Shown one piece after another: positions 34,773 through 57,681 of a stretch of DNA of 64,000 nt. The stretch's first letter is position 1. Every line of letters begins with the position of its first letter. A program made the translations under genes and the position numbers. The notes under the pieces were generated by a model. The model saw only the letters and a program-made list of their open reading frames with translations, did no database searches and was not told the DNA's origin. The DNA lies in IMG/VR virus record IMGVR_UViG_3300015607_002611, positions 9,143-73,142 of that record; one strand, given 5' to 3'. Source of the stretch: a virus.

Positions 34773-35750
34773 ATGAAGCCAATTAACTTAAAATATAATA
34801 AATCGTACGGTGCTTTTCTTTTAGAAAAGAAAATGAATGAAAATGAAGATACTGATTTATTTAAAATTTATTTAGCAGTAAGACGTTCTAGTGGCCATAG
34901 ATGGTGGACTTATAAAGGATTCGCAGCAGATAATTATTTTATTCAAATTACTGAAGAAAATATCGATAAAATTAAAGTTGATGATAGTCTTCCAATTTTA
35001 ACATATTCAACTGATATTATTAATAGATTACTTGATGCAGGTAAAATTAAAAAGAGTAATATTATTAACAATCCAAAATATGTTAAATTATCAGGTTCTA
35101 AAAAAGACTTTCATGAATTTATAGGTGAAGATGAAAATTTACCTAAAACAGTATTCACTCAAAAAGAAGCAATGAATTTAAACTTCCCTGTCATTGCAAA
35201 ACCTACAGCAGGTCATTCAGGATTAGGTATTCAAGTTTTTCAAAATGCTGATGAATTAAAAGAATCAGATGAAAATAAATTTGATTTATATTCTGAATTC
35301 GTAGATAAGAAAGAAGAACATAGATTTATTAATTATAAAGGTAAACCTATCTTTTGGATGGAAAGAGTTCCAATGAATGATAAGGCTAAAAATGGGAAAG
35401 GTAAAGCTGAAGAAAAAACAATGTTCCAATATATTAAAAGAAATGTAGACGATATCCCTGAAGATATGTTAAACGTTCTTAAAAAATATTGTGATAAATT
35501 AAAAGATCTTCCTTATATTTGTTTTGATATTATGAGAGACCAAGATGATAATATTTTTATTATAGAATCAAACTCTCAGCCGGGTGTTCCTTTTGATTCT
35601 ACTATTGAAATCTATAAAGTATTATTTGAGGATTTTTATGGTAGACCTGTAGATGAAAAGACTTCAAAAGTTTTAGATGAATACGCTAAGAAACTTATAA
35701 AGAAAACTGTATCTAAGGATGATGGTAGATTTAAAGATGAATCGAAATAA
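34773..35750 (+). CDS. ATP-grasp ligase (RimK/glutathione-synthetase-like)
   Basis: 'FPVIAKPTAGHSGLGIQVF' and C-terminal 'ICFDIMRDQDDNIFIIESNSQPGV'. Confidence 0.5.
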   Translation: MKPINLKYNKSYGAFLLEKKMNENEDTDLFKIYLAVRRSSGHRWWTYKGFAADNYFIQITEENIDKIKVDDSLPILTYSTDIINRLLDAGKIKKSNIINNPKYVKLSGSKKDFHEFIGEDENLPKTVFTQKEAMNLNFPVIAKPTAGHSGLGIQVFQNADELKESDENKFDLYSEFVDKKEEHRFINYKGKPIFWMERVPMNDKAKNGKGKAEEKTMFQYIKRNVDDIPEDMLNVLKKYCDKLKDLPYICFDIMRDQDDNIFIIESNSQPGVPFDSTIEIYKVLFEDFYGRPVDEKTSKVLDEYAKKLIKKTVSKDDGRFKDESK

Positions 35751-36913: not shown

Positions 36914-37633
36914 ATGATTATTTATAAAATAACTAATACTATTAATAATAAAATTTATATAGGACAAAGTAGCTTAACATTAAAACAGAGAATTAATAGA
37001 CATTTACATCAATCAAGTAAGGATAATCCTAAAATGAAAATTTGTAGAGCTATTAAAAAATATGGATTTTCTAACTTTAAATTTGAAACAATAGAAGATA
37101 ATATAACAAATTTAGATTTATTAAATGAAAGGGAAATGTATTGGATTTCTTTATTAAAAAGTAATAATAAAGAAATAGGTTATAATACTTTACCAGGCGG
37201 CAGATTTAATCATATAATTAAATATAATCCGGGTATGAGTAATAAAAATCATAGTGAAGAATCTAAAGATAAAATTAGAAAAGCATTTAAAGGTAAGAAG
37301 CGACCGCAATCACATATTGATGCAATGAAAAAATATTATTTAGATAATCCTAATAGACCTAAAAGAATTGTTAGTAAAGAAAGTAGAATAAAAATGAGTT
37401 TAAGTAAATCAGGTTCTAATAATCCGTGGTTTGGTAAACAAGGTCATAGATATGGTAAAGGTACTAATATTTATCAATATAATTTAGAAGGTATTTTAAT
37501 TAAAAAATGGGATAATTCAAATATAGCATCTAAGGAACTTAATATTGATAGATTAGCTATTGATAGAAGATGCAAAAAAAAATCAAATAAACCATATATG
37601 GGTTATTTGTGGTCTTATAATAAAAATATATGA
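36914..37633 (+). CDS. GIY-YIG homing endonuclease
   Basis: 'MIIYKITNTINNKIYIGQSS...RINRH', NUMOD-like 'SEESKDKIRKAFKGKKRP' and a C-terminal HTH-like region. Confidence 0.85.
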   Translation: MIIYKITNTINNKIYIGQSSLTLKQRINRHLHQSSKDNPKMKICRAIKKYGFSNFKFETIEDNITNLDLLNEREMYWISLLKSNNKEIGYNTLPGGRFNHIIKYNPGMSNKNHSEESKDKIRKAFKGKKRPQSHIDAMKKYYLDNPNRPKRIVSKESRIKMSLSKSGSNNPWFGKQGHRYGKGTNIYQYNLEGILIKKWDNSNIASKELNIDRLAIDRRCKKKSNKPYMGYLWSYNKNI

Positions 37634-38121
37634 AAGAAAAAAAAGAATCTTCGGCTGGTATAGTTTTTATTTATAATAATAAACTTTTACTTGTACATCA
37701 TACTAACAGTAAGTGGTTGGGGTCTTTTGGGTTTCCTAAGGGTAGAATTGACAAAGGTGAAACACCTTTACAAACTGCTATAAGAGAAGCATACGAGGAA
37801 GTAGGTATTAAAGTAACACCTGGTATGCTAGATAAGACACAATATGAATTAAACTACAATTTTAAAAAGAAAGAAACAAAGATATATAAAACGGCATACT
37901 ATTTCATATGTAATGTTCAGAATTTATCTGACATTGGATTAGAAAAAGAAGTCGTTCCTAAATCTCAATTACAGTTAGAAGAAGTTGATTGGGCTGGATT
38001 TGTTGATTATAACGAAGCTAAAAAGAGATTAGGAAAAGTATTTAAACCTTTATTAAAACATTATAAAGTTAATGAAAGTTTAATGCTTAAAACATTTGAA
38101 GAATTTATAAATAACAAATGA
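37630..38121 (+). CDS. Nudix hydrolase
   Basis: Nudix box 'GFPKGRIDKGETPLQTAIREAYEEVGI'. Confidence 0.85.
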   Translation: MKEKKESSAGIVFIYNNKLLLVHHTNSKWLGSFGFPKGRIDKGETPLQTAIREAYEEVGIKVTPGMLDKTQYELNYNFKKKETKIYKTAYYFICNVQNLSDIGLEKEVVPKSQLQLEEVDWAGFVDYNEAKKRLGKVFKPLLKHYKVNESLMLKTFEEFINNK

Positions 38122-43052: not shown

Positions 43053-43083
43053 TTTGGGGGCTCGACAATAATTATTATATTTA
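43053..43083 (+). promoter_or_regulatory. Bacteroidetes-type promoter CTTTGGGGG-N14-TTATATTTACT
   Basis: TTTG at 43053-56, 19 nt, then TATATTTA at 43076-83. The ATG is at 43098. Confidence 0.55.
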
Positions 43084-43097
43084 CTTAAATAAACAAA

Positions 43098-43562
43098 ATG
43101 AAAAAAGTATTAGTAATAAGTAAACGCGAGTTTGATAAAGTAATGCGCGATAATAAAATCACTGCAGAAAATATCGAAAATAGAAGTAAAGTCGCATTTA
43201 TTTCTATTAATGATACTTTCGGCACAACTGAAACACCTTTCTTTAAAGAAGACAAGGAAAATTTGCGCATCTTGTTTTTTGATGATGTTACTGAAGATAC
43301 CAAGTTAAATTGGGGCACAGCAAAAGCATTTAACAAAGAACAAGGTAAAATTGTTTTAGAATTCTTAAACAAAATCAAGGATCGCGATACATTAATAGTA
43401 CACTGTCACGCTGGAATTTCTAGGAGTGGTGCAGTAGGTCAATTCGCTGCTGATTACTTTGGTTTAGATTACAAAGAATTCAGAAACTTAAACCCACACA
43501 TTCACCCTAATTCTACCGTTACAAGAATATTAAGAGAATTAGCTCGTGAACAAGAAGACTAA
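43098..43562 (+). CDS. Cys-based (CX5R) phosphatase, dual-specificity/polynucleotide-phosphatase-like
   Basis: P-loop 'VHCHAGISRSG'. Confidence 0.75.
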   Translation: MKKVLVISKREFDKVMRDNKITAENIENRSKVAFISINDTFGTTETPFFKEDKENLRILFFDDVTEDTKLNWGTAKAFNKEQGKIVLEFLNKIKDRDTLIVHCHAGISRSGAVGQFAADYFGLDYKEFRNLNPHIHPNSTVTRILRELAREQED

Positions 43563-44577
43563 CATATTATTATCAAGGGACGAATTCAGAGAAGGTGTTT
43601 TTGAGAGAGATGGGCATAAATGCGTTGTTTGTAAAGAGCAAGGCAAAGATGCCCATCACATTCTCGAAAGAAGATTATTCAATGACGGTGGTTATTATTT
43701 AGATAACGGAGCAACGTTATGTGAAAAACATCATATTGAAGCTGAACAGACAACATTAAGTTGTGATACTATCAGAGAGCTTTGTGGTATTGAAAACTTA
43801 ATCATACCTGAACATTTTTACTCTGACTATGATTATGATAAATGGGGTAATATTATTCAGCCTAATGGATTGAGATTAAAGGGTGAATTGTTTTATGATG
43901 AATCAGTTCAGAAGATATTAAATCAAGGTAATGTTTTGAATTTATTTCAAAAATATGTAAAATATCCAAGAACTTATCATTTACCATGGAGCAATTTACT
44001 TAAAGACGATAGAAAATTAAGTGACGATTCATTCTTTCATGGAAAGAGAGTTATAATGACACTTAAAATGGATGGTGAAAATACAACAATGTATAATGAT
44101 TATATTCATGCACGTTCTTTAGAATCTAAGTCACATGAAACTAGAAATTGGGTCAAAGGCCTTTGGTCTAGAATCTCATATCTTTTAGATGAGAATATGA
44201 GATTATGTGGAGAGAATTTATATGCTGTTCATTCAATTGAATATAATGATTTACCTTCATATTTCATGCCATTCTCATTATGGATGGACAATAAGTGTTT
44301 AAGTTGGGATGAAAGTGTAGAGTACTTTAAAATTTTAGGTTTAGAACATGTTCCAGTTATCTATGATGGAATTTATGATAAAGATAAAATCATTGAAACA
44401 TTTTCTAAATATGAAAAAGAACACGAAGGCTTCGTAATTAGAATTGCAGATGAATTCAATTATGGTGAATTTAGAAGATGTGTCGCTAAATTCGTTAGAC
44501 CTGAGTTTAGACAAATAGTTAATAATTCACATGGTCACTGGATATCAAAGAAAGTGACTGTAAATAAATTAAAATAA
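43546..44577 (+). CDS. HNH/zinc-finger domain fused to ATP-dependent nucleotidyltransferase ligase (RNA-ligase-like)
   Basis: N-terminal 'CVVCKEQGKDAHHILERRLF...NGATLCEKHH' is HNH-like. Ligase motifs are I 'LKMDGEN', III 'LCGENLYAVHS', IV 'HEGFVIRIA' and V 'AKFVRPEF'. Confidence 0.6.
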   Translation: MNKKTNILLSRDEFREGVFERDGHKCVVCKEQGKDAHHILERRLFNDGGYYLDNGATLCEKHHIEAEQTTLSCDTIRELCGIENLIIPEHFYSDYDYDKWGNIIQPNGLRLKGELFYDESVQKILNQGNVLNLFQKYVKYPRTYHLPWSNLLKDDRKLSDDSFFHGKRVIMTLKMDGENTTMYNDYIHARSLESKSHETRNWVKGLWSRISYLLDENMRLCGENLYAVHSIEYNDLPSYFMPFSLWMDNKCLSWDESVEYFKILGLEHVPVIYDGIYDKDKIIETFSKYEKEHEGFVIRIADEFNYGEFRRCVAKFVRPEFRQIVNNSHGHWISKKVTVNKLK

Positions 44578-44578
44578 A

Positions 44579-44974
44579 ATGAAAACTTCATTTGATATGG
44601 ATAATACACTTGGCGAATCATGGGTGCAATTAATTGCTAAAGCCATGATTGCAGGTGGTCATGAAGTTTGGATTATAACTGCGAGATGTGATGATAGATT
44701 ACATAATCCGAATATTGCAAAAATTAATTCATGTAATAGAGACCTTTTCGCAATTGCTGAAAGGTTAGGAATTCCTGATGAAAGAATTGTAATGACTGAA
44801 GGTTCATTTAAACATAAAACTATTAAAAGGCTTGGAATTGAATTACATTTCGATGATGTACCAGAAGAAGTTGAGTTAATTAATCGAAATACAGACTGTA
44901 AAGCTCTTTTAATTTGGGACGAATTTTGTTCAGCGTCAATAAAACATGAACAATTTGCAAAAGGAATATTTTAA
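44579..44974 (+). CDS. Small HAD-like phosphatase
   Basis: Motif I 'SFDMDNTLG', 'WIITAR' and 'HFDD'. Confidence 0.45.
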   Translation: MKTSFDMDNTLGESWVQLIAKAMIAGGHEVWIITARCDDRLHNPNIAKINSCNRDLFAIAERLGIPDERIVMTEGSFKHKTIKRLGIELHFDDVPEEVELINRNTDCKALLIWDEFCSASIKHEQFAKGIF

Positions 44975-45003
44975 GAGAGTATATAATAAAATAATTTATT
45001 AAA

Positions 45004-45252
45004 ATGTGGCCTTTTAGTAAACCCACTATAGAAGTTGAATGTCGTCTTCCTGATATGTTAAGAGAAGACCAGGACTATTTATGTCAGGGTATACTTGAAG
45101 ACCTAGATGACGAATTTGGATTTTGTTATAATATACGACTTAAGTCGAGTGATATAAACAAAGTCACAATTGTAGATGGCAGAAAAAGCAAACAATTAGA
45201 AGAACGAGCGATTCGGATAGAAATTTATCGAAGGATAAACAACCTTAAGTAA
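45004..45252 (+). CDS. Small hypothetical protein
   Basis: ORF only. Confidence 0.25.
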   Translation: MWPFSKPTIEVECRLPDMLREDQDYLCQGILEDLDDEFGFCYNIRLKSSDINKVTIVDGRKSKQLEERAIRIEIYRRINNLK

Positions 45253-45256
45253 TCCG

Positions 45257-45279
45257 AAGCCTCGATATAATCGAGGCTT
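45257..45279 (+). promoter_or_regulatory. Stem-loop (AAGCCTCGAT-ata-ATCGAGGCTT) abutting promoter -33; no U-run
   Basis: 10-bp perfect stem whose 3' arm supplies the CTTTGGGGG element. Confidence 0.4.
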
Positions 45280-45308
45280 TGGGGGCTTAAGAAAAATAAT
45301 TATATTTA
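45278..45308 (+). promoter_or_regulatory. Bacteroidetes-type promoter
   Basis: TTTG at 45278-81, 19 nt, then TATATTTA at 45301-08. This string is identical to the 43053 promoter over 'TTATATTTACTTAAA'. Confidence 0.55.
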
Positions 45309-45325
45309 CTTAAAATCATAAAACC

Positions 45326-45445
45326 ATGGCAACACTAAGAAAAATAGGGAAGTTCTTAGCGAACTTATTTAAAATTAAAGGAACACCAAGAAATATGGAC
45401 GGTAGCACTGACCTGTATTTCCCTGAAGACCACTTAGGAATTTAA
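45326..45445 (+). CDS. Small ORF (39 aa) directly downstream of promoter
   Basis: ATG 17 nt after the -7 element, the same spacing as other promoter-gene pairs. Sequence 'MATLRKIGKFLANLFKIKGTPRNMDGSTDLYFPEDHLGI'. Confidence 0.35.
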   Translation: MATLRKIGKFLANLFKIKGTPRNMDGSTDLYFPEDHLGI

Positions 45446-45456
45446 AAAATTAAAAA

Positions 45457-46623
45457 ATGGAACTAGCATTAATAAATGAAATAAAAAGATTTGGACTAGA
45501 AAAGACTGCAGAAACTTACAAACTTTCTGTGAAGGATTATGGTCATAAAGTACTTATTAAGTACGACCAAATTGAATCTGACATGTCTGAACTTCCTGTA
45601 CAAGACGCAAGAGGTATAATCCTTGAGAAAGGTACTTGGAAAGTTATGTCTTTAGCTTTTAGAAAATTTTTCAACTCAGCCGAAACACAAGCCGCTAAGA
45701 TAGATTGGGATTCAGCTTTGATTTTAGAAAAGTTAGATGGAACATTAATTCAATTATACTGGGACTGGGTTTTAAAAGAATGGTGCGTAGGTACTACAGG
45801 TACTGCCGATGGTTCAGGTGAAGTGAATAACAAATTTGGGACTACATTTGCAGACTTGTTCTGGTCTACTATTGGAAAATATCCTGGTAAATTCCACGGT
45901 GTTGATAAAATGTCAAAAAATGAACGTAACGAACGTTTAAATGAATTTTTAAACGATAACTTTTGTCATGTTTTTGAATTAACTACACCTTATAATATTG
46001 TGGTTGCACCCCATGCTACATCTAACGCTACTTTGTTGGCTGCAAGAAATGTTATTACTCTTGAAGAACTTTCATTTGATAATCTAGCAGGGACTGCAAT
46101 TGAGTTAGATGTTCCTTTAGTAAAAGTGTTTGATATAAATGCTTCGAACACAGGTCATGTAATAGCTACATTGGAAGGTATGCCTTTCTCTGAAGAGGGA
46201 TATGTAGTAGTTGATAATAAATTTAATCGTATCAAGATTAAGAACCCTACATATGTTCAAGTACATCACTTGAAGTCAAAGACTTCTGAGCATGCTATAA
46301 TGGAAATTGTTAAGACTAATGAAGTTGAAGAATTTGCGGCGACATTTCCTGAAAGACGTGAAGAAATCTTTAAGCTTAAAGATGGGTTTGATAAATTAAA
46401 AGAATCATTAAAGGAAACTTGGAATGAATTAGAACCATTTAAGCCTCGTATTATCACTAAAGAAGAGAATAAGAGATTTGCAATGGCAGTTTTTGATATT
46501 ACAGGAAAGAAAGGTTGTAAAAATCATACAGGTTTATTTTTCTCTTTAAAAGATGGTAAAGTAGGAAGTGTAGAAGAATACCTTAAAGATTACGACAATA
46601 AAAAATTATATACAGAACTATAA
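45457..46623 (+). CDS. ATP-dependent RNA ligase (Rnl1-like nucleotidyltransferase)
   Basis: Motif I 'LILEKLDGTLIQ' (KxDG), motif IV 'EEGYVVVDN' and motif V 'RIKIKNP'. 388 aa. Confidence 0.65.
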   Translation: MELALINEIKRFGLEKTAETYKLSVKDYGHKVLIKYDQIESDMSELPVQDARGIILEKGTWKVMSLAFRKFFNSAETQAAKIDWDSALILEKLDGTLIQLYWDWVLKEWCVGTTGTADGSGEVNNKFGTTFADLFWSTIGKYPGKFHGVDKMSKNERNERLNEFLNDNFCHVFELTTPYNIVVAPHATSNATLLAARNVITLEELSFDNLAGTAIELDVPLVKVFDINASNTGHVIATLEGMPFSEEGYVVVDNKFNRIKIKNPTYVQVHHLKSKTSEHAIMEIVKTNEVEEFAATFPERREEIFKLKDGFDKLKESLKETWNELEPFKPRIITKEENKRFAMAVFDITGKKGCKNHTGLFFSLKDGKVGSVEEYLKDYDNKKLYTEL

Positions 46624-47191: not shown

Positions 47192-48223
47192 ATGGAATTT
47201 AAAAAATATAATGAAATAGAAAACTCTTACAGGGATGCTTTCATGAATAGGATTAATACTATGATTGCAGAAGGTCATGTTGAGAATGACTTTGTCGTTC
47301 TTGAAAAAGTACATGGTTCTAACTTCTCTTTCTGGTATGACGGTGAAACATTAAAGACAGGTAAGAAATCTGGATTCGTAGGAGGTGAAGGTGAGGACTT
47401 CTTTAATTCTCATATTATTAAAGCTAAATACGCTAATAATATTAAAAATTTATATGAACACTTTAATTTGAAATTTGGTAAAATTACCAATATGACAGTT
47501 TACGGTGAATTATGTGGTGGTTATTACCCAGGTGTAAAAAGTGATGACCCTTCTATTAAGAAAGTACAAAGTGGAGTTTGGTACTCTCCTAATTTAGAAT
47601 TTTATGCTTTTGATATTACAGTAGATGGGAAATACTTAAATGCAGATGATGTATCTATGTTATGTAGAGCATTTGACATTTTCCATGCTAAGATATTATT
47701 CAGAGGTAAATTAGAAGATTGTATGAAATATCCAAATGAATACAACTCTTTAATTTCTGGATGGTTAGGTTTACCTGAAGTTGAAGGTGGTAATATCTGT
47801 GAAGGTAATATCATTAAACCTAACAAAGCTGTATTCTTCCATAATGGCTCTAGAGTTATTATCAAGAACAAAAATGATAAGTGGTCTGAAAAAGAAAAGC
47901 CTGCAGGAAATAAAGAAAAGAAAGAAAGACCAAATTTATCTGAAGCCGGTAATAAAGTATTAGAAGAAGCTTTAACTTATGTAACTGATAATAGATTAAA
48001 GAACGTTCTTTCTAAATGGGAAGGTCCAGTTACAAGTAAAGACTTTGGTCGTTTAATGCAATTAATGAATGTTGATGCATTAGAAGATTTACATAAAGAC
48101 TTTGGCCCTGAATTATTAGCTTTAGAAAAGGAAGAAATTAAGTTAATTAACAAATCTATTGGTAATAAGGCTTCTATTTTAATAAGGAAAAACTTTTTAA
48201 ATATAATCGATAATAATTTCTGA
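47192..48223 (+). CDS. RNA ligase 2 family (Rnl2-like)
   Basis: Motif I 'VLEKVHGSNFSF' (compare T4 Rnl2 EKIHGTNFS), motif III 'VYGELCGG', motif IV 'EGNIIKP' and motif V 'VIIKNK'. 343 aa. Confidence 0.75.
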   Translation: MEFKKYNEIENSYRDAFMNRINTMIAEGHVENDFVVLEKVHGSNFSFWYDGETLKTGKKSGFVGGEGEDFFNSHIIKAKYANNIKNLYEHFNLKFGKITNMTVYGELCGGYYPGVKSDDPSIKKVQSGVWYSPNLEFYAFDITVDGKYLNADDVSMLCRAFDIFHAKILFRGKLEDCMKYPNEYNSLISGWLGLPEVEGGNICEGNIIKPNKAVFFHNGSRVIIKNKNDKWSEKEKPAGNKEKKERPNLSEAGNKVLEEALTYVTDNRLKNVLSKWEGPVTSKDFGRLMQLMNVDALEDLHKDFGPELLALEKEEIKLINKSIGNKASILIRKNFLNIIDNNF

Positions 48224-48528: not shown

Positions 48529-48735
48529 ATGGCAATAAATTTTTGGGTTCATAAACATGATTTGGACCATTTAAACAAGCTTTTGAAAAAGCCATTACCA
48601 GATATAAATGACGATGATTATATTCTTGAAGTTTATATGCAAAGTAAGAACGGATGGCTCCAAAACAATTACTTCCAGGTGGGTATAAGCTATGAAGACT
48701 TCATGAGAATTGAAGGATATTTAGATTTCGTATAA
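48529..48735 (+). CDS. Small hypothetical protein
   Basis: ORF only. Confidence 0.25.
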   Translation: MAINFWVHKHDLDHLNKLLKKPLPDINDDDYILEVYMQSKNGWLQNNYFQVGISYEDFMRIEGYLDFV

Positions 48736-49127
48736 TGGCTGAAACCGATTTTCTATATATGAATAAGAAAACCCTAGGTTATATCTTAGATTGGTGCGTA
48801 AATGAATACGGTCATTCTAAACATGTTACACATGGTTTACTTAAATATAAAATAAATTATCGGTGCATACCTAAAGGTTGGTTTAAATCAGCTGAAGTTA
48901 TGATTGAAGTTAATCCGAAAAATCATACGAGTTTAATTGATTTTGTACATACTGCAATACATGAGTATACACATTATATGCAAGACCAAGACTTATATGA
49001 TAAGTACTCTGAAGAACATGATGATGATACTAATCCATTGGAAATTGAAGCTGATATGGTAGCAATGAGAGATAAGAAAAGATGTTTAAGAAAAATTAAA
49101 AAGTTAATAGAAGAAGATGAAAGATAA
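48735..49127 (+). CDS. Putative HExxH zinc metallopeptidase-like protein
   Basis: 'VHTAIHEYTHYMQD'. Confidence 0.35.
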   Translation: MAETDFLYMNKKTLGYILDWCVNEYGHSKHVTHGLLKYKINYRCIPKGWFKSAEVMIEVNPKNHTSLIDFVHTAIHEYTHYMQDQDLYDKYSEEHDDDTNPLEIEADMVAMRDKKRCLRKIKKLIEEDER

Positions 49128-49896
49128 TTTGGGCGACCGTATAAAAAACAACTACGAAGATAGAACGAGATTTTCTTTACCTCGTAGAACATATACAATT
49201 ATTAGATTAGATGGTAAAGCATTCCACACTTATACAAGAGGATTGGAAAAACCATTTGATATGGATTTAATCAATGATATGGCGGAAGCTACTAAATATC
49301 TTTGTGAAAATATCCAAGGTTGTATTTTAGGTTATACACAGAGTGATGAGATTTCACTTTTATTAACTGACTTTGAGAAGCCAGGGACAAGTGCATGGTT
49401 TGATGGTAATATTCAAAAGATGGCAAGTATTTCAGCTTCAATGGTTACAGCTAAGTTTAATGATATTAGAAGAGGGCGTGAGGCTCACAAGAATATTGCA
49501 TTATTTGATAGTAGAGTATTTACAATATCTGATAGAATTGAAGTAATGAACTATTTTATTTGGAGACAGAAAGATGCTACACGTAACTCAATAAGTATGG
49601 CAGCACATGCATTATGTGGCCACAAGGCTTGTATGGGTAAATCAAGCTCTGATAAGCAAGAAATGATTTTCCAAAAAGGTGTTAATTGGAATGATTATCC
49701 AACATCTTGTAAAAATGGAACAATGATTACAAAAAAGACTGGTGTTATGAAGAATCTTAATCCTAAACCAGGGCAACCTGAGATGTATGAAAGAAGCTTC
49801 TGGCAAATTGAAGGTGCTAAAAACTTTAGAACATTTTTGCCTAAATTTTTACCTACAATGAAAGTTGAATTAGAAGACAATGATGTTTTATCTTAA
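49117..49896 (+). CDS. Thg1-like protein (tRNA-His guanylyltransferase family, 3'-5' nucleotidyltransferase)
   Basis: 'IIRLDGKAFHTYT' (Thg1 VRLDGRNFH), 'GYTQSDEISLLL' (AYGQSDEYSFVF) and 'MNYFIWRQKDATRNSISMAAHAL' ([23 protein letters not shown]). Confidence 0.8.
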   Translation: MKDNLGDRIKNNYEDRTRFSLPRRTYTIIRLDGKAFHTYTRGLEKPFDMDLINDMAEATKYLCENIQGCILGYTQSDEISLLLTDFEKPGTSAWFDGNIQKMASISASMVTAKFNDIRRGREAHKNIALFDSRVFTISDRIEVMNYFIWRQKDATRNSISMAAHALCGHKACMGKSSSDKQEMIFQKGVNWNDYPTSCKNGTMITKKTGVMKNLNPKPGQPEMYERSFWQIEGAKNFRTFLPKFLPTMKVELEDNDVLS

Positions 49897-49905
49897 ATAA
49901 ATAAT

Positions 49906-50661
49906 ATGTATACTAAAAATGAACTAGCAAATTTTATAGCATTTGACTTAGAAACAGCAAGTGGTTATAAAGACCTTGATACTCTTAATGAAGAAAACCC
50001 TCGTTTAGGTGAATTATGGAATAAACGTTGTGAATATCTTCGTACAAAACATGATGATAATAAGCCTTTAACAAATGCTGAGATATATGAACAGAAAACA
50101 GGTTTACAAGCGGAATATGGCAAGATTGTATGTATTAGCATCGCATATGTTAGATATAATAAGGATAATCAGCCCGTAATTAAATCTAAAAGCTTTAAAA
50201 GCCATGATGAAAAAGAATTATTAGAAGCTTTCTTTAATTTTTTAACATCAGCTAAAGACAAATTACCAAATGCAGTATTCTGTGGCCATAATATTAAAAG
50301 ATTTGATATTCCATTTTTATGTAAGCGTGCATTAATTAATGGTTTAAAAGTACCAGCTCAATTTAATACTATTGGAAAGAAACCATGGGAATTAAGTATT
50401 GTTGATACTGCTGAACTTTGGTCGTTTGGTGCATGGCAAGAATCTTTCACTTCTTTAGACACTTTAACAGCAGTATTAAATATTCCATCACCTAAAAGTG
50501 ATATTGATGGAAGTAAAGTATCAGAAGTGTTCTGGCAAGAAGGTGATTTAGATAGAATCGCTAAGTATTGTGAACAAGATGTTGCAGCTACTATTAATGT
50601 ACTTATAGCATTATCTGGATTTGAAATAGCAGAGCCTAGCAACATTACATCTGTTGAATAA
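49906..50661 (+). CDS. DnaQ-like 3'-5' exonuclease (DEDDy)
   Basis: Exo I 'IAFDLETAS', Exo II 'CGHNIKRFDIPFL' and Exo III 'YCEQDVAAT'. Confidence 0.75.
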   Translation: MYTKNELANFIAFDLETASGYKDLDTLNEENPRLGELWNKRCEYLRTKHDDNKPLTNAEIYEQKTGLQAEYGKIVCISIAYVRYNKDNQPVIKSKSFKSHDEKELLEAFFNFLTSAKDKLPNAVFCGHNIKRFDIPFLCKRALINGLKVPAQFNTIGKKPWELSIVDTAELWSFGAWQESFTSLDTLTAVLNIPSPKSDIDGSKVSEVFWQEGDLDRIAKYCEQDVAATINVLIALSGFEIAEPSNITSVE

Positions 50662-51011
50662 TGGAAATACATTACGCTGAAACATTTACAGCTACGATTT
50701 ACTGTGGCTTTAAACCAGGATATGATGGAATGGAAGACTATGAATCAATGAGTCTTGCTGAAGTTGTATGCCAGGAGTATTGTAATAAATATGGCGCTGG
50801 TTTTACAATTGAACCAACTAAATTCATTTATACTAATGGTAGAGAAAATGGAGTTAAAATAGGTTTAATTAATTATCCTCGATTTCCTAAAAGACCTATT
50901 GAAATTAAGAATATCGCAATTCAGATTGCAGCTGAACTAAAGGAAGTATTTAAACAACATCGAGTTTCAATTGTATGTAGCGATGAAACTATAATGATTG
51001 GTGAAAAATAA
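50661..51011 (+). CDS. Hypothetical protein
   Basis: ORF only. Confidence 0.3.
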   Translation: MEIHYAETFTATIYCGFKPGYDGMEDYESMSLAEVVCQEYCNKYGAGFTIEPTKFIYTNGRENGVKIGLINYPRFPKRPIEIKNIAIQIAAELKEVFKQHRVSIVCSDETIMIGEK

Positions 51012-51045: not shown

Positions 51046-51228
51046 ATGAATAAAGAAAAATACCTCAAGAAGTTAAGGGATGACATTGATAAAATGCCAA
51101 TAGAACAATTGAGAGAATATTGCTGGCGATTAGATAGGAATGCCCAAACCTATTTTGAAAACTGGCAATTGGCGGAAGAAAAAATAATAGAATTAGAAAT
51201 TAAATTATCCTTGAAAAATGACGATTGA
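51046..51228 (+). CDS. Small hypothetical protein
   Basis: ORF only. Confidence 0.25.
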   Translation: MNKEKYLKKLRDDIDKMPIEQLREYCWRLDRNAQTYFENWQLAEEKIIELEIKLSLKNDD

Positions 51229-52390
51229 AGATTTAAAAAGCAAGAATTTAATTATATTTGAATGTATTACCGGTTCAACCGCCTACGGTACGAATTTACC
51301 TACTTCAGATATAGACATTAAGGGTGTATTCATCCAACCTCTAGAAGATATTCTAGGAATGGGATATGTTGAACAAGTAAATGACGCGAAAAACGATATT
51401 ACTTATTACGAAATTCGTAGGTTCATTGAACTCATTTCAAGTAACAATCCAAACTTACTTGAAATGTTAAATGTGCCTGAAGATTGCATTAAATATAAAC
51501 ATCCAGTATTTGATGAAATTATAAACAATTCTGATAAGTTTATTACAAAAATTTGTCGCGATTCATTTGCAGGTTATGCAGTATCACAAATTAAAAAGGC
51601 AAGAGGTTTAAACAAGAAAATTGTGAACCCTGTTGCTAAGGAAAGAAAATCTCCACTTGACTTCTGTAAAGTTATTAATGGTTATAACAGTAAGGCAATG
51701 GATAAATTTTTAGCAGAAGGTGGATACGAACAGAGATTTTGTGGAGTATCTGCTGTGCCAAATGCACGTGATACTTATGCTTTATTTTACGACTTAGATG
51801 CACATATGTGCTTTTCAGAAAATGTACCTTTAGAAGATAGAGAAGCTAGGAAAGCTCATCGAAAAGAAAATGGTTTACCTATGGGATTTGGATTCAAAGG
51901 TATTTTATTAGAAATTGAAGGTGGCGATGGTTTCGCATCAAATGAAATTAGAATGTCTTCTATACCTAAGGGAATTGAACCAATTGCAACATTTAGTTAT
52001 AACAAAGATGGTTATACTAAATATTGTAAAGATTATAGAGAATACTGGCATTGGGTTGAAAATAGAAACGATGCACGTTATAATGATAATGCTAACCATG
52101 GTAAAGGATATGATGGGAAAAATCTTTCACATTGTCATAGGTTATTAGATATGGCTATAGAAATAGCTGAAGGTAAAGGTATTTTAGTTAAAAGACCTAA
52201 TAGAGATGAACTTTTATCAATTAGAAGAGGTGAAATGGATTACGATGAATTAGTTATAAGTGCAGAATCTAAAATTAAATTAATAGATGAACTTTACGAA
52301 AAATCTAATTTACCTAATAAAGTCGATATTTCTATTTCTAATGATATTTTAATTAATATACGTAAACAATTCTATGGGTTACAAGGGTAA
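51218..52390 (+). CDS. Pol-beta superfamily nucleotidyltransferase (RNA-repair-associated type)
   Basis: 'IIFECITGSTAYGTNLPTSDIDIKGVF' fits the GSx(9-13)DxD minimal-NTase motif. Confidence 0.55.
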   Translation: MTIEDLKSKNLIIFECITGSTAYGTNLPTSDIDIKGVFIQPLEDILGMGYVEQVNDAKNDITYYEIRRFIELISSNNPNLLEMLNVPEDCIKYKHPVFDEIINNSDKFITKICRDSFAGYAVSQIKKARGLNKKIVNPVAKERKSPLDFCKVINGYNSKAMDKFLAEGGYEQRFCGVSAVPNARDTYALFYDLDAHMCFSENVPLEDREARKAHRKENGLPMGFGFKGILLEIEGGDGFASNEIRMSSIPKGIEPIATFSYNKDGYTKYCKDYREYWHWVENRNDARYNDNANHGKGYDGKNLSHCHRLLDMAIEIAEGKGILVKRPNRDELLSIRRGEMDYDELVISAESKIKLIDELYEKSNLPNKVDISISNDILINIRKQFYGLQG

Positions 52391-53125: not shown

Positions 53126-53312
53126 ACATGGCATAACAGGTAATTATTATGTAACCAGTTTGGAGAAATCTGAACTGGTTATTGTTTGTAGAGCTATTGG
53201 TAAATCTGAAGCTTCAATTAAATGGCACGAAAAGTATAATTGTTGGGTTTTTAGAGTTAAAGAAAAAGCAATGAAGAAAAAACTTAAAGAATACTTTGGG
53301 AGTATATCATAA
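53115..53312 (+). CDS. Small hypothetical protein (66 aa from internal ATG of track ORF 53040..53312)
   Basis: The ATG at 53115 overlaps the HE stop by 11 nt. The upstream part of the track ORF lies inside the HE gene in another frame. Confidence 0.3.
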   Translation: MTFKHGITGNYYVTSLEKSELVIVCRAIGKSEASIKWHEKYNCWVFRVKEKAMKKKLKEYFGSIS

Positions 53313-53339
53313 TTTGTTAGATTTATCAAAAGAATAAAT

Positions 53340-53651
53340 ATGAAAAAATTAATAGCATTATTAATGCTTATATTCGTATTAAATACGACATACGCGCAAA
53401 AACGACAAGGGTACAGTGAACGAGATAAATCGACAAGTGTTGGATTAGTAGTAGGTGGTGTTGCATTTACAACGGCAGCATTCTTAGAAGGTCCACAAAA
53501 CTATGGAACTTGGAAACATAATCCTAATAGTACGAGCCAATATAATATGACTTATGTTACACCTTCATTTTGGCAACAAACGCCTAGAAATATAATGTTT
53601 GTAGTAGGTATAACAGTTACAATAACAGGATTAATAACATTAAAAAAATGA
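53340..53651 (+). CDS. Secreted/membrane protein
   Basis: Signal peptide 'MKKLIALLMLIFVLNTTYA' and C-terminal TM 'IMFVVGITVTITGLITL'. Confidence 0.45.
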   Translation: MKKLIALLMLIFVLNTTYAQKRQGYSERDKSTSVGLVVGGVAFTTAAFLEGPQNYGTWKHNPNSTSQYNMTYVTPSFWQQTPRNIMFVVGITVTITGLITLKK

Positions 53652-54397
53652 AAAATAATAAAATGAACTTTGCTGTCATAGGGGACGTGCACGGAAATTG
53701 GAATTCCATGTATAGACTTATTGAACATAAAAATATTAAAAATGCCTTATTAATACAATTAGGTGACTTTGGTGTGGGTTTTATAAGTAAACATCAAGAT
53801 AGAAAAAATCTCGAATTTTTAAACGAAAAGCTTGCTAAAAGAAATATTATCATGTATGCAATACGTGGTAATCATGATGACCCTTCTATGTTTAAGGGTG
53901 ATTATGTATTTAGTAATTTAAAACTTGTCGATGACTATACAGTTATTGAAGCTCCTAATGGGGATAAAATAGCAATGTTTGGTGGAGCTTTGTCAATTGA
54001 TAGAAAACCACGTATTGCTGAAATGACTGAGTATTCTAAATATAATCTTGATAGAGAGACTTATTGGTATGATGAGAATTTTGTATTGAATGAAGAGTTG
54101 GCTAAAAAGATAACAGGATGTAAATATGTAATTACACATACATCTCCAGATTTTTGCTGGCCTGATAATAAAAATGGATTTGGACCTTTAGTCGAGCATT
54201 TTATTATGTTAGGTGATAAAAAATTAAAAGAAGAATTACCACATGAACGTGCACAATTAACTAAACTTTATAATATACTTAAAGAAAATAATCCTATTGA
54301 AAAATGGTTTTATGGTCATTTTCACAGAACTGAATTAACAGTGCATAATGGAATTGAGTTTCATTTATTAGATATTAACGAAATAAAAGAAGTATAA
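53648..54397 (+). CDS. Calcineurin-like metallophosphatase (Ser/Thr- or polynucleotide-phosphatase-like)
   Basis: 'FAVIGDVHGNW' (GDxHG), 'LGDFGVGF' and 'RGNHDDP' (GNHD/E). Confidence 0.75.
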   Translation: MKNNKMNFAVIGDVHGNWNSMYRLIEHKNIKNALLIQLGDFGVGFISKHQDRKNLEFLNEKLAKRNIIMYAIRGNHDDPSMFKGDYVFSNLKLVDDYTVIEAPNGDKIAMFGGALSIDRKPRIAEMTEYSKYNLDRETYWYDENFVLNEELAKKITGCKYVITHTSPDFCWPDNKNGFGPLVEHFIMLGDKKLKEELPHERAQLTKLYNILKENNPIEKWFYGHFHRTELTVHNGIEFHLLDINEIKEV

Positions 54398-54846: not shown

Positions 54847-55025
54847 TGAAACGAATAAATCGTAAAAAATTAATAATTGAATTGGAATTCCTAAGACAAG
54901 GATTTGCGGATGCAATAATGGAAGCTAAACGTAATAAAGATGAAGTTGCTGAAATAACTTTTAAAGCACATCATTGGAATGCTAATCGATTAATTGTAGA
55001 ATTAGGTGGTGAAAGTGTATTATGA
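54846..55025 (+). CDS. Small ORF (59 aa; below track cutoff)
   Basis: TAATG overlap upstream and ATGA overlap downstream. It fills a 175-bp apparent gap. Confidence 0.4.
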   Translation: MKRINRKKLIIELEFLRQGFADAIMEAKRNKDEVAEITFKAHHWNANRLIVELGGESVL

Positions 55026-55495
55026 TAACAAAAGTAATATTTTTAGATATTGATGGGGTATTAAATGTATATCCACAAGGCCATGATGAGTATGGTGCAA
55101 TTTGGCATGACCACTTTGTAAACAATCTAAAAAGAATTATTGATGCAACTGATGCTAAAATTGTTATTAGTACATGGAGAATGTCAGGTCTTTTAGTTAT
55201 GAAAGAAATGTGGGCTAAACGTGGTTTACCTGGTCGTGTAGTTGATATTACACCTAACCACATGGTAAGAACTGGAAGTACTTTACAAAGAGGTAAAGAA
55301 ATTGACGAATATTTATCATATAATCCTGAAATTACACATTACGTAATTTTAGATGATGATGAAGATATGGAACCCCATCAAATGGATAATTTTGTCAAAA
55401 CATCAGGTAACGTAGACCACCCTGATTGTGTTGATGTGGGTTATGGATTAACAGATATATGTACTGATAGGGTTATAGCTATTTTAAATAAATGA
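55022..55495 (+). CDS. NT5C-like HAD 5'-(deoxy)nucleotidase
   Basis: Motif I 'VIFLDIDGVLNV' (DxDGV as in NT5C 'VDMDGVL'), 'VISTWR' and 'ILDDDED'. Confidence 0.55.
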   Translation: MITKVIFLDIDGVLNVYPQGHDEYGAIWHDHFVNNLKRIIDATDAKIVISTWRMSGLLVMKEMWAKRGLPGRVVDITPNHMVRTGSTLQRGKEIDEYLSYNPEITHYVILDDDEDMEPHQMDNFVKTSGNVDHPDCVDVGYGLTDICTDRVIAILNK

Positions 55496-56800: not shown

Positions 56801-57256
56801 ATGAAAGTAAATTTAGATACCGAATTATTCGCAGTAGTAAATACTAAAACCAATGAATTAGTTCCAAGATATACAGGTGGCTTTTTCTGGACAAGAAGAG
56901 GTGATGCGGAAAGAAAATTTGATGAAATGCTCAGGAAAGCATCGCATTATAGTTTAATGGTTTGTAAATTAAATGTGACTGAAATGCTATCAGGCCCACA
57001 AATCATGGAAGAAAGACGAATCGCTGCAGAAAAGGCCGCAGAGATTGCAAGACAAAAAAGAGAAGCTGAACAGCTTAGAAATCAAAGAATCGAAGAACTT
57101 AAAAATGAACTTAAAGAATTGACAGGTCAAAGAGAACTGGATATTCCAACTATTAAAACATTCTTAGTCAGTAACTTAATTGTACCTGACTATAAAGTTA
57201 AAATTGAAAACGTTCTTAACGAACTAAGCACTTTAAATTATTCAAAAGTACGATAA
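56801..57256 (+). CDS. Hypothetical coiled-coil protein
   Basis: Charged helical middle region. Confidence 0.3.
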   Translation: MKVNLDTELFAVVNTKTNELVPRYTGGFFWTRRGDAERKFDEMLRKASHYSLMVCKLNVTEMLSGPQIMEERRIAAEKAAEIARQKREAEQLRNQRIEELKNELKELTGQRELDIPTIKTFLVSNLIVPDYKVKIENVLNELSTLNYSKVR

Positions 57257-57681
57257 TGAAAAAAGCACTATTTTTATTAAGAGGTTTGCCTGGAAATGGT
57301 AAGACAACCGCTGCAGAAATTCTTTCTGAAGCCCCTGGCATCATGCCTTACCCTGTATATTCTGCTGATGACTATTTTTACGAAAATGGTCCAAATCCTG
57401 GTCAATATGACTTTAACAGGGAAAAACTAGGTGCTGCACATAAACAATGTCAAGACAGGACTGAATTAGCAATGAAGTCTGGTGTAGAAAAAGTATTTGT
57501 GGCCAACACATTTACTACTGATAAAGAAATTAAGCCTTATAAAGAGCTTGCAGAAAGATACGGTTATATGTTGATGTCAATAATTGTTGAAAACCGTCAT
57601 GGCAACAAATCAATACATGGTGTTCCTGAGGAAACGATGGAAGCTATGGAAAAACGTTTTACTGTTAAGTTAAGAGGTTAA
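57256..57681 (+). CDS. P-loop kinase, polynucleotide-kinase-like
   Basis: Walker A 'LLRGLPGNGKTTAA' (compare T4 Pnk GCPGSGKST). 141 aa, kinase domain only. Confidence 0.55.
   Translation: MKKALFLLRGLPGNGKTTAAEILSEAPGIMPYPVYSADDYFYENGPNPGQYDFNREKLGAAHKQCQDRTELAMKSGVEKVFVANTFTTDKEIKPYKELAERYGYMLMSIIVENRHGNKSIHGVPEETMEAMEKRFTVKLRG

What the first reader, a model, noticed from the sequence alone, without database searches (positions are those of the whole stretch)
49117..49896. Thg1-like 3'-5' nucleotidyltransferase encoded by a phage
The ORF shares the RLDG(K/R)xFH, GY(T/G)QSDE(I/Y)S and YFxWRQ blocks with eukaryotic Thg1 and bacterial TLPs. These enzymes add nucleotides to RNA 5' ends and are known for tRNA-His maturation and 5'-end repair. 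A phage copy next to an exonuclease and a nucleotidyltransferase implies template-dependent 5'-end repair of tRNAs during infection. It may counter a host nuclease that trims the tRNA acceptor stem.
Basis: partly seen in the sequence, partly recalled or inferred. Interest (0 to 1): 0.7.

Follow-up and report, generated by a model that had tools for sequence, protein, structure and literature searches.

The report
Phage Thg1-like reverse RNA polymerase gene
A large uncultivated phage carries an intact copy of a Thg1-like enzyme that adds nucleotides to RNA 5' ends, sitting among RNA-repair genes. This kind of phage gene is already widely annotated and its repair role already predicted, so the finding is real but ordinary.

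Summary
ORF 49117-49896 (+, 259 aa) is a Thg1-family protein: Pfam Thg1 E=1.9e-28, PHROG 4717 E=4.8e-86, and Bacillus thuringiensis TLP (PDB 4kgk) E=4.8e-60. The three quoted motifs are present. All catalytic and activation residues are conserved (D32, D77, E78, R30, K45, S76, K101, R133). The HINNLYN motif of true tRNA-His guanylyltransferases is absent, so it is a bacterial-type TLP.

It lies in a promoter-bracketed block Rnl1-Rnl2-TLP-exonuclease-RlaP, inside a wider island of phosphatases, a kinase and a third ligase. The element is probably a huge phage of Bacteroidota.

Template-dependent repair of tRNA 5' ends is the best reading, but it is inferred, not shown. It is also not new. Phage Thg1 genes were noted in 2010, 2013 and 2021. 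Homologues occur in 164 GenBank phage records and at least 584 IMG/VR contigs.

The adjacency to the exonuclease is lineage-specific. That exonuclease family sits in DNA replication modules in other phages. Linkage to RNA ligases is general: about 4-fold enrichment within 2 kb.

No host nuclease that trims tRNA 5' ends turned up in one literature search. Verdict: new member of a known kind, with modest interest.

The parts
49117..49896 (+). Thg1-like protein (TLP), 259 aa. Catalytic D32, D77, E78. Activation residues K45, S76. Transfer residues R30, K101, R133.
45278..45308 (+). Promoter-like motif TTTGGGG-N16-TATATTTA, preceded by a hairpin. Proposed start of the transcription unit that holds the TLP.
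   Evidence: Five exact matches in the window against 0.01 expected. The same motif lies before Rnl1 in relative L007.
45457..46623 (+). T4 Rnl1-type RNA ligase, 388 aa.
   Evidence: PF09511 E=8.7e-14; TIGR02308 56.9 bits, below its cut-off.
47192..48223 (+). T4 Rnl2-type RNA ligase, 343 aa.
   Evidence: PF09414 plus PF18043; TIGR02307 197.1 bits against a cut-off of 197.15.
48735..49127 (+). 130-aa protein with an HEYTH (HExxH) motif. It overlaps the TLP start by 11 nt. Conserved only in the close lineage.
   Evidence: sequence. No Pfam or PHROG hit. tblastn hits in 8 of 8 close loci only.
49906..50661 (+). DEDDy-type 3'-5' exonuclease related to the PolB exonuclease domain. Motifs FDLET, HNIKRFD and YCEQD are visible.
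   Evidence: PF10108 E=1.1e-20; phrog_25228 E=2.2e-38 and phrog_403 'DNA polymerase exonuclease subunit' E=2.2e-16; weak match to the Pfu PolB exonuclease domain.
50661..51011 (+). 116-aa protein of unknown function, conserved with the operon.
   Evidence: phrog_4848 E=1.3e-22. Present in 8 of 8 close loci.
51218..52390 (+). RlaP-family Pol-beta nucleotidyltransferase, 390 aa.
   Evidence: PF10127 E=6.5e-19. Best phage relatives are uncultured huge phages, Tenacibaculum PTm1 and Prevotella Lak phages.
53151..53182 (+). Terminator-like hairpin. The next promoter-like motif follows at 53295-53325. Proposed end of the unit.
43098..43562 (+). DSP/PTP-like phosphatase, 154 aa (below the Pfam cut-off). 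First gene after the promoter-like motif at 43053.
   Evidence: PF00782 E=1.8e-5, 25 bits against a cut-off of 33.5; motif.
43546..44577 (+). HNH domain fused to an RNA ligase (third ligase), 343 aa.
   Evidence: PF09414 E=2.1e-29; phrog_24030 full length, E=1.4e-125.
44579..44974 (+). Small HAD-like protein with a DMDNT (DxDxT) motif. Putative phosphatase.
   Evidence: Sequence. No Pfam hit. Inference only.
53648..54397 (+). Calcineurin-like metallophosphoesterase, 249 aa.
   Evidence: PF00149 E=5.1e-13.
55022..55495 (+). HAD_SAK_2 phosphatase ('Swiss Army Knife' RNA-repair HAD domain).
   Evidence: PF18143 E=1.7e-24.
57256..57681 (+). P-loop kinase of AAA_33 type. Candidate 5'-kinase; function not tested.
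   Evidence: PF13671 E=1.4e-8.

Best explanation
The ORF encodes a catalytically competent bacterial-type Thg1-like protein (TLP). TLPs are reverse (3'->5') template-dependent RNA polymerases.

Proposed mechanism, taken from BtTLP and MaTLP:
1. The enzyme activates a 5'-monophosphate RNA end with ATP or GTP, or uses a 5'-triphosphate end directly.
2. It adds the Watson-Crick-templated nucleotide(s), reading the opposite strand of the tRNA acceptor stem. This rebuilds missing 5'-terminal nucleotides.

In this large, uncultivated, probably Bacteroidota-infecting phage it appears to be co-transcribed with Rnl1, Rnl2, a DEDDy exonuclease and RlaP. Phosphatases, a kinase and a third ligase lie nearby. 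Its most likely job is one step in the phage's RNA (chiefly tRNA) end-healing toolkit, which keeps translation running when host ribotoxins damage RNA.

Shown here: family membership, intact active site, fold, operon-like context, and a general genomic linkage of TLPs to RNA ligases.
Inferred: enzymatic activity, tRNA as the substrate, timing during infection, and the existence of a host activity that produces 5'-truncated tRNAs.
For: Identity:
- Pfam Thg1 E=1.9e-28; PHROG 4717 E=4.8e-86.
- BtTLP 4kgk E=4.8e-60, against 3e-14 to 5e-8 for eukaryotic Thg1.
- AF2 pLDDT 89.6, with all top PDB fold hits Thg1/TLP.

Active site:
- D32/D77/E78 correspond to BtTLP D30/D75/E76.
- K45, S76, R30 and M161 correspond to BtTLP K43, S74, R28 and M158.
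- K101 and R133 correspond to ScThg1 K96 and R133.
- Nearly all of these are invariant across 34 homologues, and position 45 is K or R.

TLP type: TRNSISM replaces HINNLYN.

Context:
- Genes run head to tail from Rnl2 through o116 with gaps of 26 nt or less, or overlaps.
- The Rnl1...RlaP block is bracketed by a promoter-like motif (5 exact sites against 0.01 expected). It is bracketed the same way in a relative whose TLP is 77% identical.

General linkage:
- In 160 other TLP loci, RNA ligase genes are 2.7% of genes within 2 kb against 0.7% at 2-6 kb (Fisher p=1e-4).
- RlaP, CCA-adding enzyme, RtcB, HAD_SAK_2, Macro-like and NADAR genes recur nearby.

The same role was predicted in PMC2904730 and PMC7824862.
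Against: - No activity assay exists for any phage TLP in the literature searched.
- The physiological substrate of bacterial TLPs is itself unknown (PMC3061083).
- One literature search found no bacterial defence nuclease that removes tRNA 5' nucleotides. The two effectors read from it cut the CCA tail or the T-loop.
- Only 30 of 80 viral and 21 of 80 genomic TLP loci have any recognised RNA-repair gene within 6 kb. Several cultured phages carry the TLP among unrelated genes.
- Co-transcription is inferred from a sequence motif, not measured.
- Loci used for the statistics are not phylogenetically independent.
Confidence: 0.6

Rival explanations
1. tRNA-His upkeep. The enzyme adds or restores G-1 on host or phage tRNA-His (templated by C73). 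This would ensure histidylation when RNase P or damage removes G-1, as the database label 'tRNA-His guanylyltransferase' suggests.
For: - BtTLP can add templated N-1 to tRNA-His and weakly complements yeast thg1-delta (PMC3061083).
- tRNA-His genes lie within a few kb of TLP homologues in 10 of 168 loci (11 genes in all). These include a conserved TLP-RNA ligase...tRNA-His arrangement in Bacteroidota contigs L095 and L097-L099.
Against: - HINNLYN, the motif of dedicated Thg1 enzymes, is absent.
- BtTLP prefers +1 repair over -1 addition by 5-160 fold.
- 10 of 11 tRNA-His genes near TLP homologues encode G at -1 and C73, so no post-transcriptional addition is required.
- tRNA-His is not over-represented among neighbouring tRNAs.
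- No tRNA-His was seen in the ~95 kb of this phage that could be read.
Confidence: 0.15
2. Non-tRNA 5'-end chemistry. The TLP activates or extends 5' ends of other RNAs, such as cleaved mRNAs, rRNA fragments or ligase substrates. For example, it could make 5'-App or 5'-ppp ends that feed the adjacent ligases or protect RNA from 5'-dependent decay.
For: - It appears co-transcribed with two 5'-phosphate RNA ligases.
- TLPs are tightly linked to ligases in general.
- Anantharaman et al. 2010 raised ligation via a 5'-App intermediate.
Against: - All characterised TLP substrates are tRNA-like acceptor stems.
- The ligases adenylylate 5'-phosphate ends themselves (established knowledge of Rnl1/Rnl2).
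- No sequence feature here points to a different substrate.
Confidence: 0.12
3. Coincidental neighbourhood. The TLP is a mobile accessory gene that landed in a region rich in homing endonucleases. The exonuclease next to it is a DNA replication or recombination enzyme. The pair has no joint function.
For: - Exonuclease within 6 kb of a TLP in only 1 of 80 viral and 0 of 80 genome loci outside the close lineage.
- Exonuclease homologues in Cellulophaga and Flavobacterium phages lie beside helicase, VirE, DnaQ-like and PD-(D/E)XK genes.
- It also matches phrog_403 'DNA polymerase exonuclease subunit'.
- Homing endonucleases are inserted within the block in relatives.
Against: - The TLP-exonuclease pair and the flanking ligases and RlaP remain together in relatives whose TLP has diverged to 77% identity.
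- The block shares one promoter-like motif.
- TLP linkage to RNA-repair genes is statistically general.
Confidence: 0.13

Closest known systems
Bacillus thuringiensis TLP (BtTLP; PDB 4kgk/4kgm)
   Same: - About half of residues identical over aa 3-207, E=4.8e-60.
- Same fold.
- Same catalytic, activation and transfer residues, including Met at the position of yeast N161.
   Different: - Encoded by a phage rather than a bacterium.
- The C-terminal ~50 aa align poorly to BtTLP. They are confidently modelled up to about residue 250, and a sequence alignment to MaTLP (5axk) extends to residue 226.
- Activity is not measured.
Phage 'tRNA-His guanylyltransferase' genes (PHROG 4717). Examples: Bacillus phages Bc431v3, Bcp1 and Goe8, Staphylococcus phage PMBT8, Xanthomonas jumbo phages XacN1 and Xoo-sp13, Prevotella (Lak) phages.
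   Same: - Same family: 43-55% identity, in 164 GenBank phage records.
- Already interpreted as tRNA modification or repair genes.
   Different: - This copy forms its own small clade with metagenomic relatives.
- It sits in a denser RNA-repair block than the cultured examples inspected.
Eukaryotic Thg1 (yeast, human, C. albicans)
   Same: Palm-domain fold and two-metal carboxylates.
   Different: - Lacks HINNLYN.
- Only E=3e-14 to 5e-8 by sequence.
- Predicted to be template-dependent rather than to add G-1 opposite A73.
T4-type RNA healing and sealing (Pnkp + Rnl1, Rnl2) and the jumbo-phage RNA-repair guild described by Iyer et al. 2021
   Same: Rnl1, Rnl2, RlaP, phosphatases, a kinase and PTH2 (upstream) are all present. 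Thg1 is listed by that paper as a sporadic member.
   Different: - No fused Pnkp was recognised; kinase and phosphatase functions are on separate small proteins.
- Adds a third ligase (HNH fusion) and the TLP.

Membership tests
Thg1/TLP superfamily (PF04446) | Thg1 catalytic palm domain detected above the curated threshold. | tested here: met
   99.5 bits against a cut-off of 29.2, aa 11-137. The Thg1C C-terminal domain scores only 23.3 bits against a cut-off of 26.3. The fold model nonetheless aligns with solved Thg1/TLP chains over most of its length.
Thg1/TLP superfamily (PF04446) | Three conserved carboxylates (hTHG1 D29/D76/E77; BtTLP D30/D75/E76). | tested here: met
   D32, D77 and E78 align to them (numbering from PMC3701042). 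Invariant in 34 homologues.
Thg1/TLP superfamily (PF04446) | Activation-step residues (ScThg1 K44, S76) and transfer-step residues (R27, K96, R133). | tested here: met
   K45, S76, R30, K101 and R133 align in the 5xox and 4kgk alignments. S76, R30, K101 and R133 are invariant in alignment A1; position 45 is K or R.
Thg1 sensu stricto (tRNA-His G-1 guanylyltransferase) | HINNLYN motif (ScThg1 155-161). Its role as a Thg1-specific marker rests on my own knowledge of the family. | tested here: not met
   The aligned segment is TRNSISM, as in BtTLP (SKNSISM).
Bacterial/archaeal TLP (5'-end repair type) | Closer to characterised TLPs than to eukaryotic Thg1. | tested here: met
   BtTLP E=4.8e-60 and MaTLP E=8.6e-16, against Thg1 at 3.3e-14 to 4.7e-8.
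Bacterial/archaeal TLP (5'-end repair type) | Template-dependent 3'-5' addition to 5'-truncated tRNA, preferred over -1 addition. | not testable with these tools
   Needs an enzyme assay. Inferred from BtTLP (PMC3061083).
Bacterial/archaeal TLP (5'-end repair type) | Homotetramer (dimer of dimers). | not tested
   Only a monomer was modelled.
Phage RNA-repair (healing and sealing) guild | Genomic linkage to RNA ligase(s) and end-healing enzymes. | tested here: met
   Rnl1, Rnl2, HNH-ligase, RlaP, HAD_SAK_2, metallophosphatase and AAA_33 kinase within 8 kb. General TLP-ligase linkage p=1e-4.
Phage RNA-repair (healing and sealing) guild | A cognate host ribotoxin whose damage is reversed. | not testable with these tools
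   The host is unknown. One literature search found no 5'-trimming effector.
Bacteriophage origin of the window | Viral hallmark genes (capsid, terminase, portal). | tested here: inconclusive
   None seen in the ~95 kb read.

Phage origin is inferred from:
- PHROG and T4-type accessory genes (Rnl1, Rnl2, T4_Y16D)
- at least 6 homing endonucleases
- one-strand dense coding
- suppressor tRNAs
- best matches of RlaP and the exonuclease to huge or Bacteroidota phages

The most novel reading that the evidence does not exclude
In this lineage of huge Bacteroidota phages, the co-transcribed TLP, DEDDy exonuclease and RlaP form a dedicated module that rebuilds both strands of the tRNA acceptor end. 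The TLP would rebuild the 5' strand against the 3' strand. The exonuclease would trim damaged 3' tails, and RlaP would re-add them. Rnl1/Rnl2 would seal breaks.

Such a module would counter a host immune effector that attacks the acceptor end. Known effectors of that kind include CCA-tail cleavage by Cas12a3. Toxins that modify the tRNA 3' end are a further possibility; that rests on my own knowledge and was not checked here. A still unknown 5'-trimming nuclease is another.

If true, this would give prokaryotic TLPs their first physiological substrate and their first role in a virus-host conflict.
Probability: 0.15. Interest if true: 0.65.

Novelty: new member of a known kind. Interest (0 to 1): 0.3.

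Why it matters
Reverse (3'-5') polymerases of the TLP type have had no established physiological substrate in bacteria since their repair activity was found in vitro in 2010. Phage copies embedded in RNA-repair operons are a plausible place to find one, because a phage knockout gives a clean phenotype.

This window adds a well-preserved example with an unusually complete repair context. It also suggests that huge Bacteroidota phages invest heavily in RNA end repair. It does not add a new kind of gene or a new idea. Cultured Bacillus, Staphylococcus or Xanthomonas phages with the same gene are more tractable systems for the decisive experiments.

Tried and rejected
1. Conserved TLP-exonuclease pairing. 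tblastn and profile searches of 160 other TLP loci found the exonuclease near a TLP once. Rejected as a general association.

2. 5'-editing of mismatched phage tRNAs, as in amoebal mitochondria. The three tRNAs found upstream of the window have fully paired acceptor stems. No support.

3. G-1 addition to tRNA-His. Neighbouring tRNA-His genes encode G-1. Demoted to a rival.

4. Donor lineage. A rough NJ tree without bootstrap places the window clade inside a mostly viral group. The nearest cellular sequences are Bacteroidota at 56-66% identity. No specific donor could be named.

5. Sigma-70 promoter scan. It found fewer sites than shuffled sequence, so it was uninformative. A lineage-specific motif was found instead.

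6. Search for structural hallmark genes. Walking about 10 kb upstream and 10 kb downstream found none. Further walking was blocked because only window proteins may be looked up, and one look-up had no record.

7. Near-identical DNA in GenBank phages: none.

8. Burroughs & Aravind 2016, the source of the RlaP definition, was not available in the library.

9. A novel C-terminal extension. The tail is confidently modelled up to about residue 250, and a sequence alignment to MaTLP extends to residue 226. No evidence of a separate added domain.
Full report
OBSERVATION

The ORF is real and lies exactly where stated: 49117-49896, + strand, ATG start, 259 aa. Its N-terminus (MKDNLGDRIK) matches the family consensus, so the start is correct.

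- RLDGKAFH at aa 30-37
- GYTQSDEIS at aa 72-80
- YFIWRQ at aa 146-151

The similarity is not marginal:
- Pfam Thg1 PF04446: E=1.9e-28, 99.5 bits against a gathering score of 29.2
- PHROG 4717 'tRNA-His guanylyltransferase': E=4.8e-86
- Bacillus thuringiensis Thg1-like protein, PDB 4kgk: E=4.8e-60 over residues 3-207
- An AlphaFold2 model built on 34 homologues has mean pLDDT 89.6. All 32 Foldseek hits in the PDB with E<=0.001 are Thg1 or TLP chains, with BtTLP first.

WHAT KIND OF THG1-FAMILY PROTEIN

I used the residue numbering in Hyde et al. 2013 (PMC3701042) and the printed alignments.
- The metal-binding carboxylates BtTLP D30/D75 and the third carboxylate E76 correspond to D32, D77 and E78.
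- The activation-step lysine and serine (BtTLP K43, S74) correspond to K45 and S76.
- BtTLP R28 corresponds to R30.
- The transfer-step residues ScThg1 K96 and R133 correspond to K101 and R133.
- Nearly all of these are invariant in an alignment of 34 homologues at 53-77% identity; position 45 is K or R.

At the position of the HINNLYN motif of eukaryotic Thg1 (ScThg1 155-161) the protein reads TRNSISM, like BtTLP (SKNSISM). Eukaryotic Thg1 proteins match only at E=3e-14 to 5e-8.

It is therefore a bacterial-type TLP, not a dedicated tRNA-His guanylyltransferase. The database label 'tRNA-His guanylyltransferase' carried by its phage homologues probably misdescribes the function.

BtTLP prefers to add the missing, Watson-Crick-templated +1 nucleotide to 5'-truncated tRNAs. 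The preference over -1 addition is 5-160 fold, it holds for all four nucleotides, and it also applies to tRNA-Phe (PMC3061083).

THE ELEMENT

Evidence on composition and coding:
- The window is 26-33% G+C, and almost every gene is on the + strand.
- It has no tRNA gene.
- It has no near-identical DNA among 50,697 GenBank phage records.

Gene content:
- T4-type accessory genes: Rnl1, Rnl2 and T4_Y16D
- at least six homing endonucleases
- many auxiliary metabolic genes

Flanking regions:
- Ten kb upstream of the window, on contigs that encode an identical copy of the window's first protein, lie PTH2, a sigma-70 region-2 protein and thymidylate synthase. Two amber-suppressor tRNAs (anticodon CUA) and a tRNA-Cys lie there too.
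- Ten kb downstream lie a second HAD_SAK_2, UvdE and an HD_4 hydrolase.

Host and relatives:
- Only 5 of 101 genes have a Shine-Dalgarno-like 4-mer upstream, against 9.7% at random positions. The upstream regions are A-rich and G-poor. I read this as the pattern of Bacteroidota; that attribution rests on my own knowledge.
- The closest phage relatives of the RlaP gene are uncultured huge phages (49% identity), Tenacibaculum jumbo phage PTm1 and Prevotella Lak phages.
- The closest phage relatives of the exonuclease are Cellulophaga and Flavobacterium phages.

No capsid or terminase gene was seen in the ~95 kb that could be read. Phage origin is therefore a strong inference, not a demonstration. 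Contigs carrying relatives reach 98-198 kb.

CONTEXT OF THE TLP

From Rnl2 (47192-48223) through the 116-aa ORF (50661-51011), genes follow each other with gaps of 26 nt or less, or with overlaps. The TLP start overlaps the preceding 130-aa HExxH protein by 11 nt. The exonuclease starts 10 nt after the TLP stop.

A motif TTTGGGG-N16-TA(T/A)ATTTA occurs five times exactly (0.01 expected), and eight times with up to two mismatches (1.1 expected). Every site is on the + strand, intergenic, just upstream of a gene start, and within 39.7-58.2 kb.

One copy (45278) precedes Rnl1. The next (53295) follows a terminator-like hairpin (53151-53182) after RlaP and a GIY-YIG gene. In relative L007, whose TLP is 77% identical, the motif again brackets Rnl1...RlaP.

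I therefore propose one transcription unit: Rnl1, Rnl2, HExxH protein, TLP, exonuclease, RlaP. This is inferred, not measured.

Around this unit lie:
- a DSP-like phosphatase
- an HNH-RNA ligase fusion
- a small HAD-like protein
- a metallophosphatase
- a HAD_SAK_2 phosphatase
- an AAA_33 kinase

RlaP enzymes add one or two nucleotides to RNA 3'-OH ends, and restore function to over-damaged tRNAs before ligation (PMC12776372).

HOW GENERAL IS THE CONTEXT

The family is very common:
- at least 584 IMG/VR viral contigs
- 164 GenBank phage records
- 207 stretches in the one-genome-per-species GTDB collection

I called ORFs around the TLP in 80 viral and 80 genomic loci, clustered them, and annotated the recurrent clusters. 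No single neighbour is universal.

Recurrent neighbours are RNA ligases (often directly adjacent), HAD_SAK_2, metallophosphatases, RlaP, CCA-adding enzyme, RtcB, Macro-like and NADAR proteins, NAMPT with a PRPP-type enzyme, and YqeY.

RNA ligase genes make up 26 of 977 genes within 2 kb of the TLP, against 10 of 1448 at 2-6 kb (odds ratio 3.9, p=1e-4). The loci are not independent, and the profiles were trained within 6 kb. This reproduces the association reported in 2010 (PMC2904730).

By contrast, the exonuclease lies near a TLP only in the close lineage and in one other viral locus. In the two cultured Bacteroidota phages examined, its homologues sit next to helicase, VirE, DnaQ-like and PD-(D/E)XK genes. 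It also matches a PHROG named 'DNA polymerase exonuclease subunit'.

MECHANISM AND RIVALS

Best explanation (confidence 0.6 for function; identity is near certain). The TLP rebuilds missing 5'-terminal nucleotides of tRNA acceptor stems. It activates the 5' phosphate and then adds templated nucleotides. It acts as one tool of the phage's RNA-repair kit.

Rivals:
- tRNA-His G-1 upkeep. This is weakened by the absence of HINNLYN. It is also weakened because 10 of 11 tRNA-His genes near TLP homologues encode G-1 and C73.
- Action on other RNA 5' ends. Nothing specific supports this.
- Coincidental neighbourhood of mobile accessory genes.

I also asked whether the phage's own tRNAs need 5' editing. 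The three tRNAs found have fully paired acceptor stems, so nothing points that way.

On the proposed host nuclease: the papers found by one search describe bacterial effectors that cut the tRNA CCA tail (Cas12a3, PMC12851939) or the T-loop (Cash, PMC13462974). None removes 5' nucleotides. That part of the interpretation remains a guess.

PHYLOGENY

In a rough neighbour-joining tree of 156 TLPs (no bootstrap), the window protein groups with three metagenomic relatives at 71-77% identity. That group sits inside a clade of which 15 of 18 members come from viral contigs.

The nearest cellular sequences are from Bacteroidota at 56-66% identity. This looks like a long-resident viral lineage. No donor can be named.

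COMPARISON WITH THE KNOWN, AND NOVELTY

Prior reports:
- Thg1-family genes in caudoviruses and a mimivirus, with a proposed RNA-repair role and linkage to polynucleotide kinase, Macro and RNA ligase, were described in 2010 (PMC2904730).
- A phage copy was highlighted as an unusual gene in 2013 (PMC3601020).
- Thg1 was listed among jumbo-phage RNA-repair enzymes in 2021 (PMC7824862).
- PHROGs holds the family.

I found no experimental study of any phage TLP in the searchable library.

The finding is therefore a new member of a known kind, in a notably rich repair context. Interest 0.3.

The most novel reading still open is that the TLP, exonuclease and RlaP form a dedicated two-strand acceptor-end rebuilding module against an acceptor-end-targeting host effector. 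I give it a probability of 0.15 and an interest of 0.65 if true.

Noticed in passing
L172 1182-1407 (about 9 kb upstream of the window start, on a contig that encodes an identical copy of the window's first protein): Two amber-suppressor tRNAs (anticodon CUA) flank a tRNA-Cys, all with fully paired acceptor stems. TAG is the rarest stop codon in the window (4 of 101 genes). This suggests TAG recoding in another, probably late, part of the genome, as reported for Lak and crAss-like phages; that comparison rests on my own knowledge.
   Followed up: partly
window 39764, 43053, 45278, 53295, 55762, 56321, 56751, 58162 (all + strand): A promoter-like motif TTTGGGG-N16-TA(T/A)ATTTA. There are 5 exact sites (0.01 expected) and 8 sites with up to 2 mismatches (1.1 expected). 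All are intergenic and just upstream of genes. They occur only in the 39.7-58.2 kb RNA-repair region, and otherwise only in close relatives L001-L003, L007 and L008.
   Followed up: partly
window 27950-30489; L172 8093-9034: Argininosuccinate synthase (PF00764 plus PF20979, E about 1e-54 to 1e-58) and a Lyase_1 enzyme (argininosuccinate lyase/fumarase type) lie side by side. An arginine deiminase-family gene lies upstream of the window. Together these are an arginine/citrulline pathway set, unusual for a phage.
   Followed up: no
L001 5434-7507, compared with window 44579-46623: Population variant with an identical TLP. A GIY-YIG homing endonuclease has replaced the end of the HAD-like gene, the 82-aa ORF and the promoter-like motif. 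Rnl1 survives only as residues 1-87 (84% identity) and 233-388. Rnl1 appears dispensable or decaying in that variant.
   Followed up: partly
window 43546-44577: An HNH nuclease domain (aa 13-70) is fused to a PF09414 RNA ligase. It matches phrog_24030 'RNA ligase' end to end (E=1.4e-125), so the fusion recurs in phages. It is absent from relative L007.
   Followed up: partly
whole window, 101 + strand genes: No Shine-Dalgarno signal: 5 of 101 genes have an SD-like 4-mer, against 9.7% background. Upstream regions are A-rich and G-poor. With the best phage matches being Cellulophaga, Flavobacterium, Tenacibaculum and Prevotella phages, this points to a Bacteroidota host.
   Followed up: partly
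window 11778-13307, 19711-20700, 25194-25853, 31164-32855, 34773-35750, 37630-38121: A dense set of auxiliary genes: a sialyltransferase-like protein, a nucleotide-sugar epimerase, APS kinase (E=4.9e-71; a faint sulfotransferase-like hit lies upstream in L172), a 563-aa Band_7/SPFH protein, an ATP-grasp protein and a NUDIX hydrolase.
   Followed up: no
L095 12796-12868; L097, L098 and L099 at about 13000-13100: In Bacteroidota MAG contigs, a TLP is directly followed by an OB-fold RNA ligase (PF21189 plus PF09414). A tRNA-His gene with encoded G-1 and C73 lies about 2.4 kb downstream, and in L097-L099 RtcB lies upstream. The arrangement is conserved in L097-L099, and L095 shares the tRNA-His position. 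The L098 contig is labelled as a gammaproteobacterium.
   Followed up: no
L174 11551-12048, 13663-14565, 16118-16693 (downstream of the window): A second HAD_SAK_2 phosphatase, a UvdE endonuclease and an HD_4 (RelA/SpoT-type hydrolase) gene. The HD_4 gene could be a small alarmone hydrolase aimed at toxic alarmone synthetases.
   Followed up: no
GenBank LR745206.1 (uncultured huge phage, 634,780 bp): This record holds homologues of all three genes: TLP at about 369.4 kb, exonuclease at about 381.0 kb, and RlaP at about 494.5 kb (49% identity class). The genes are not adjacent there.
   Followed up: no
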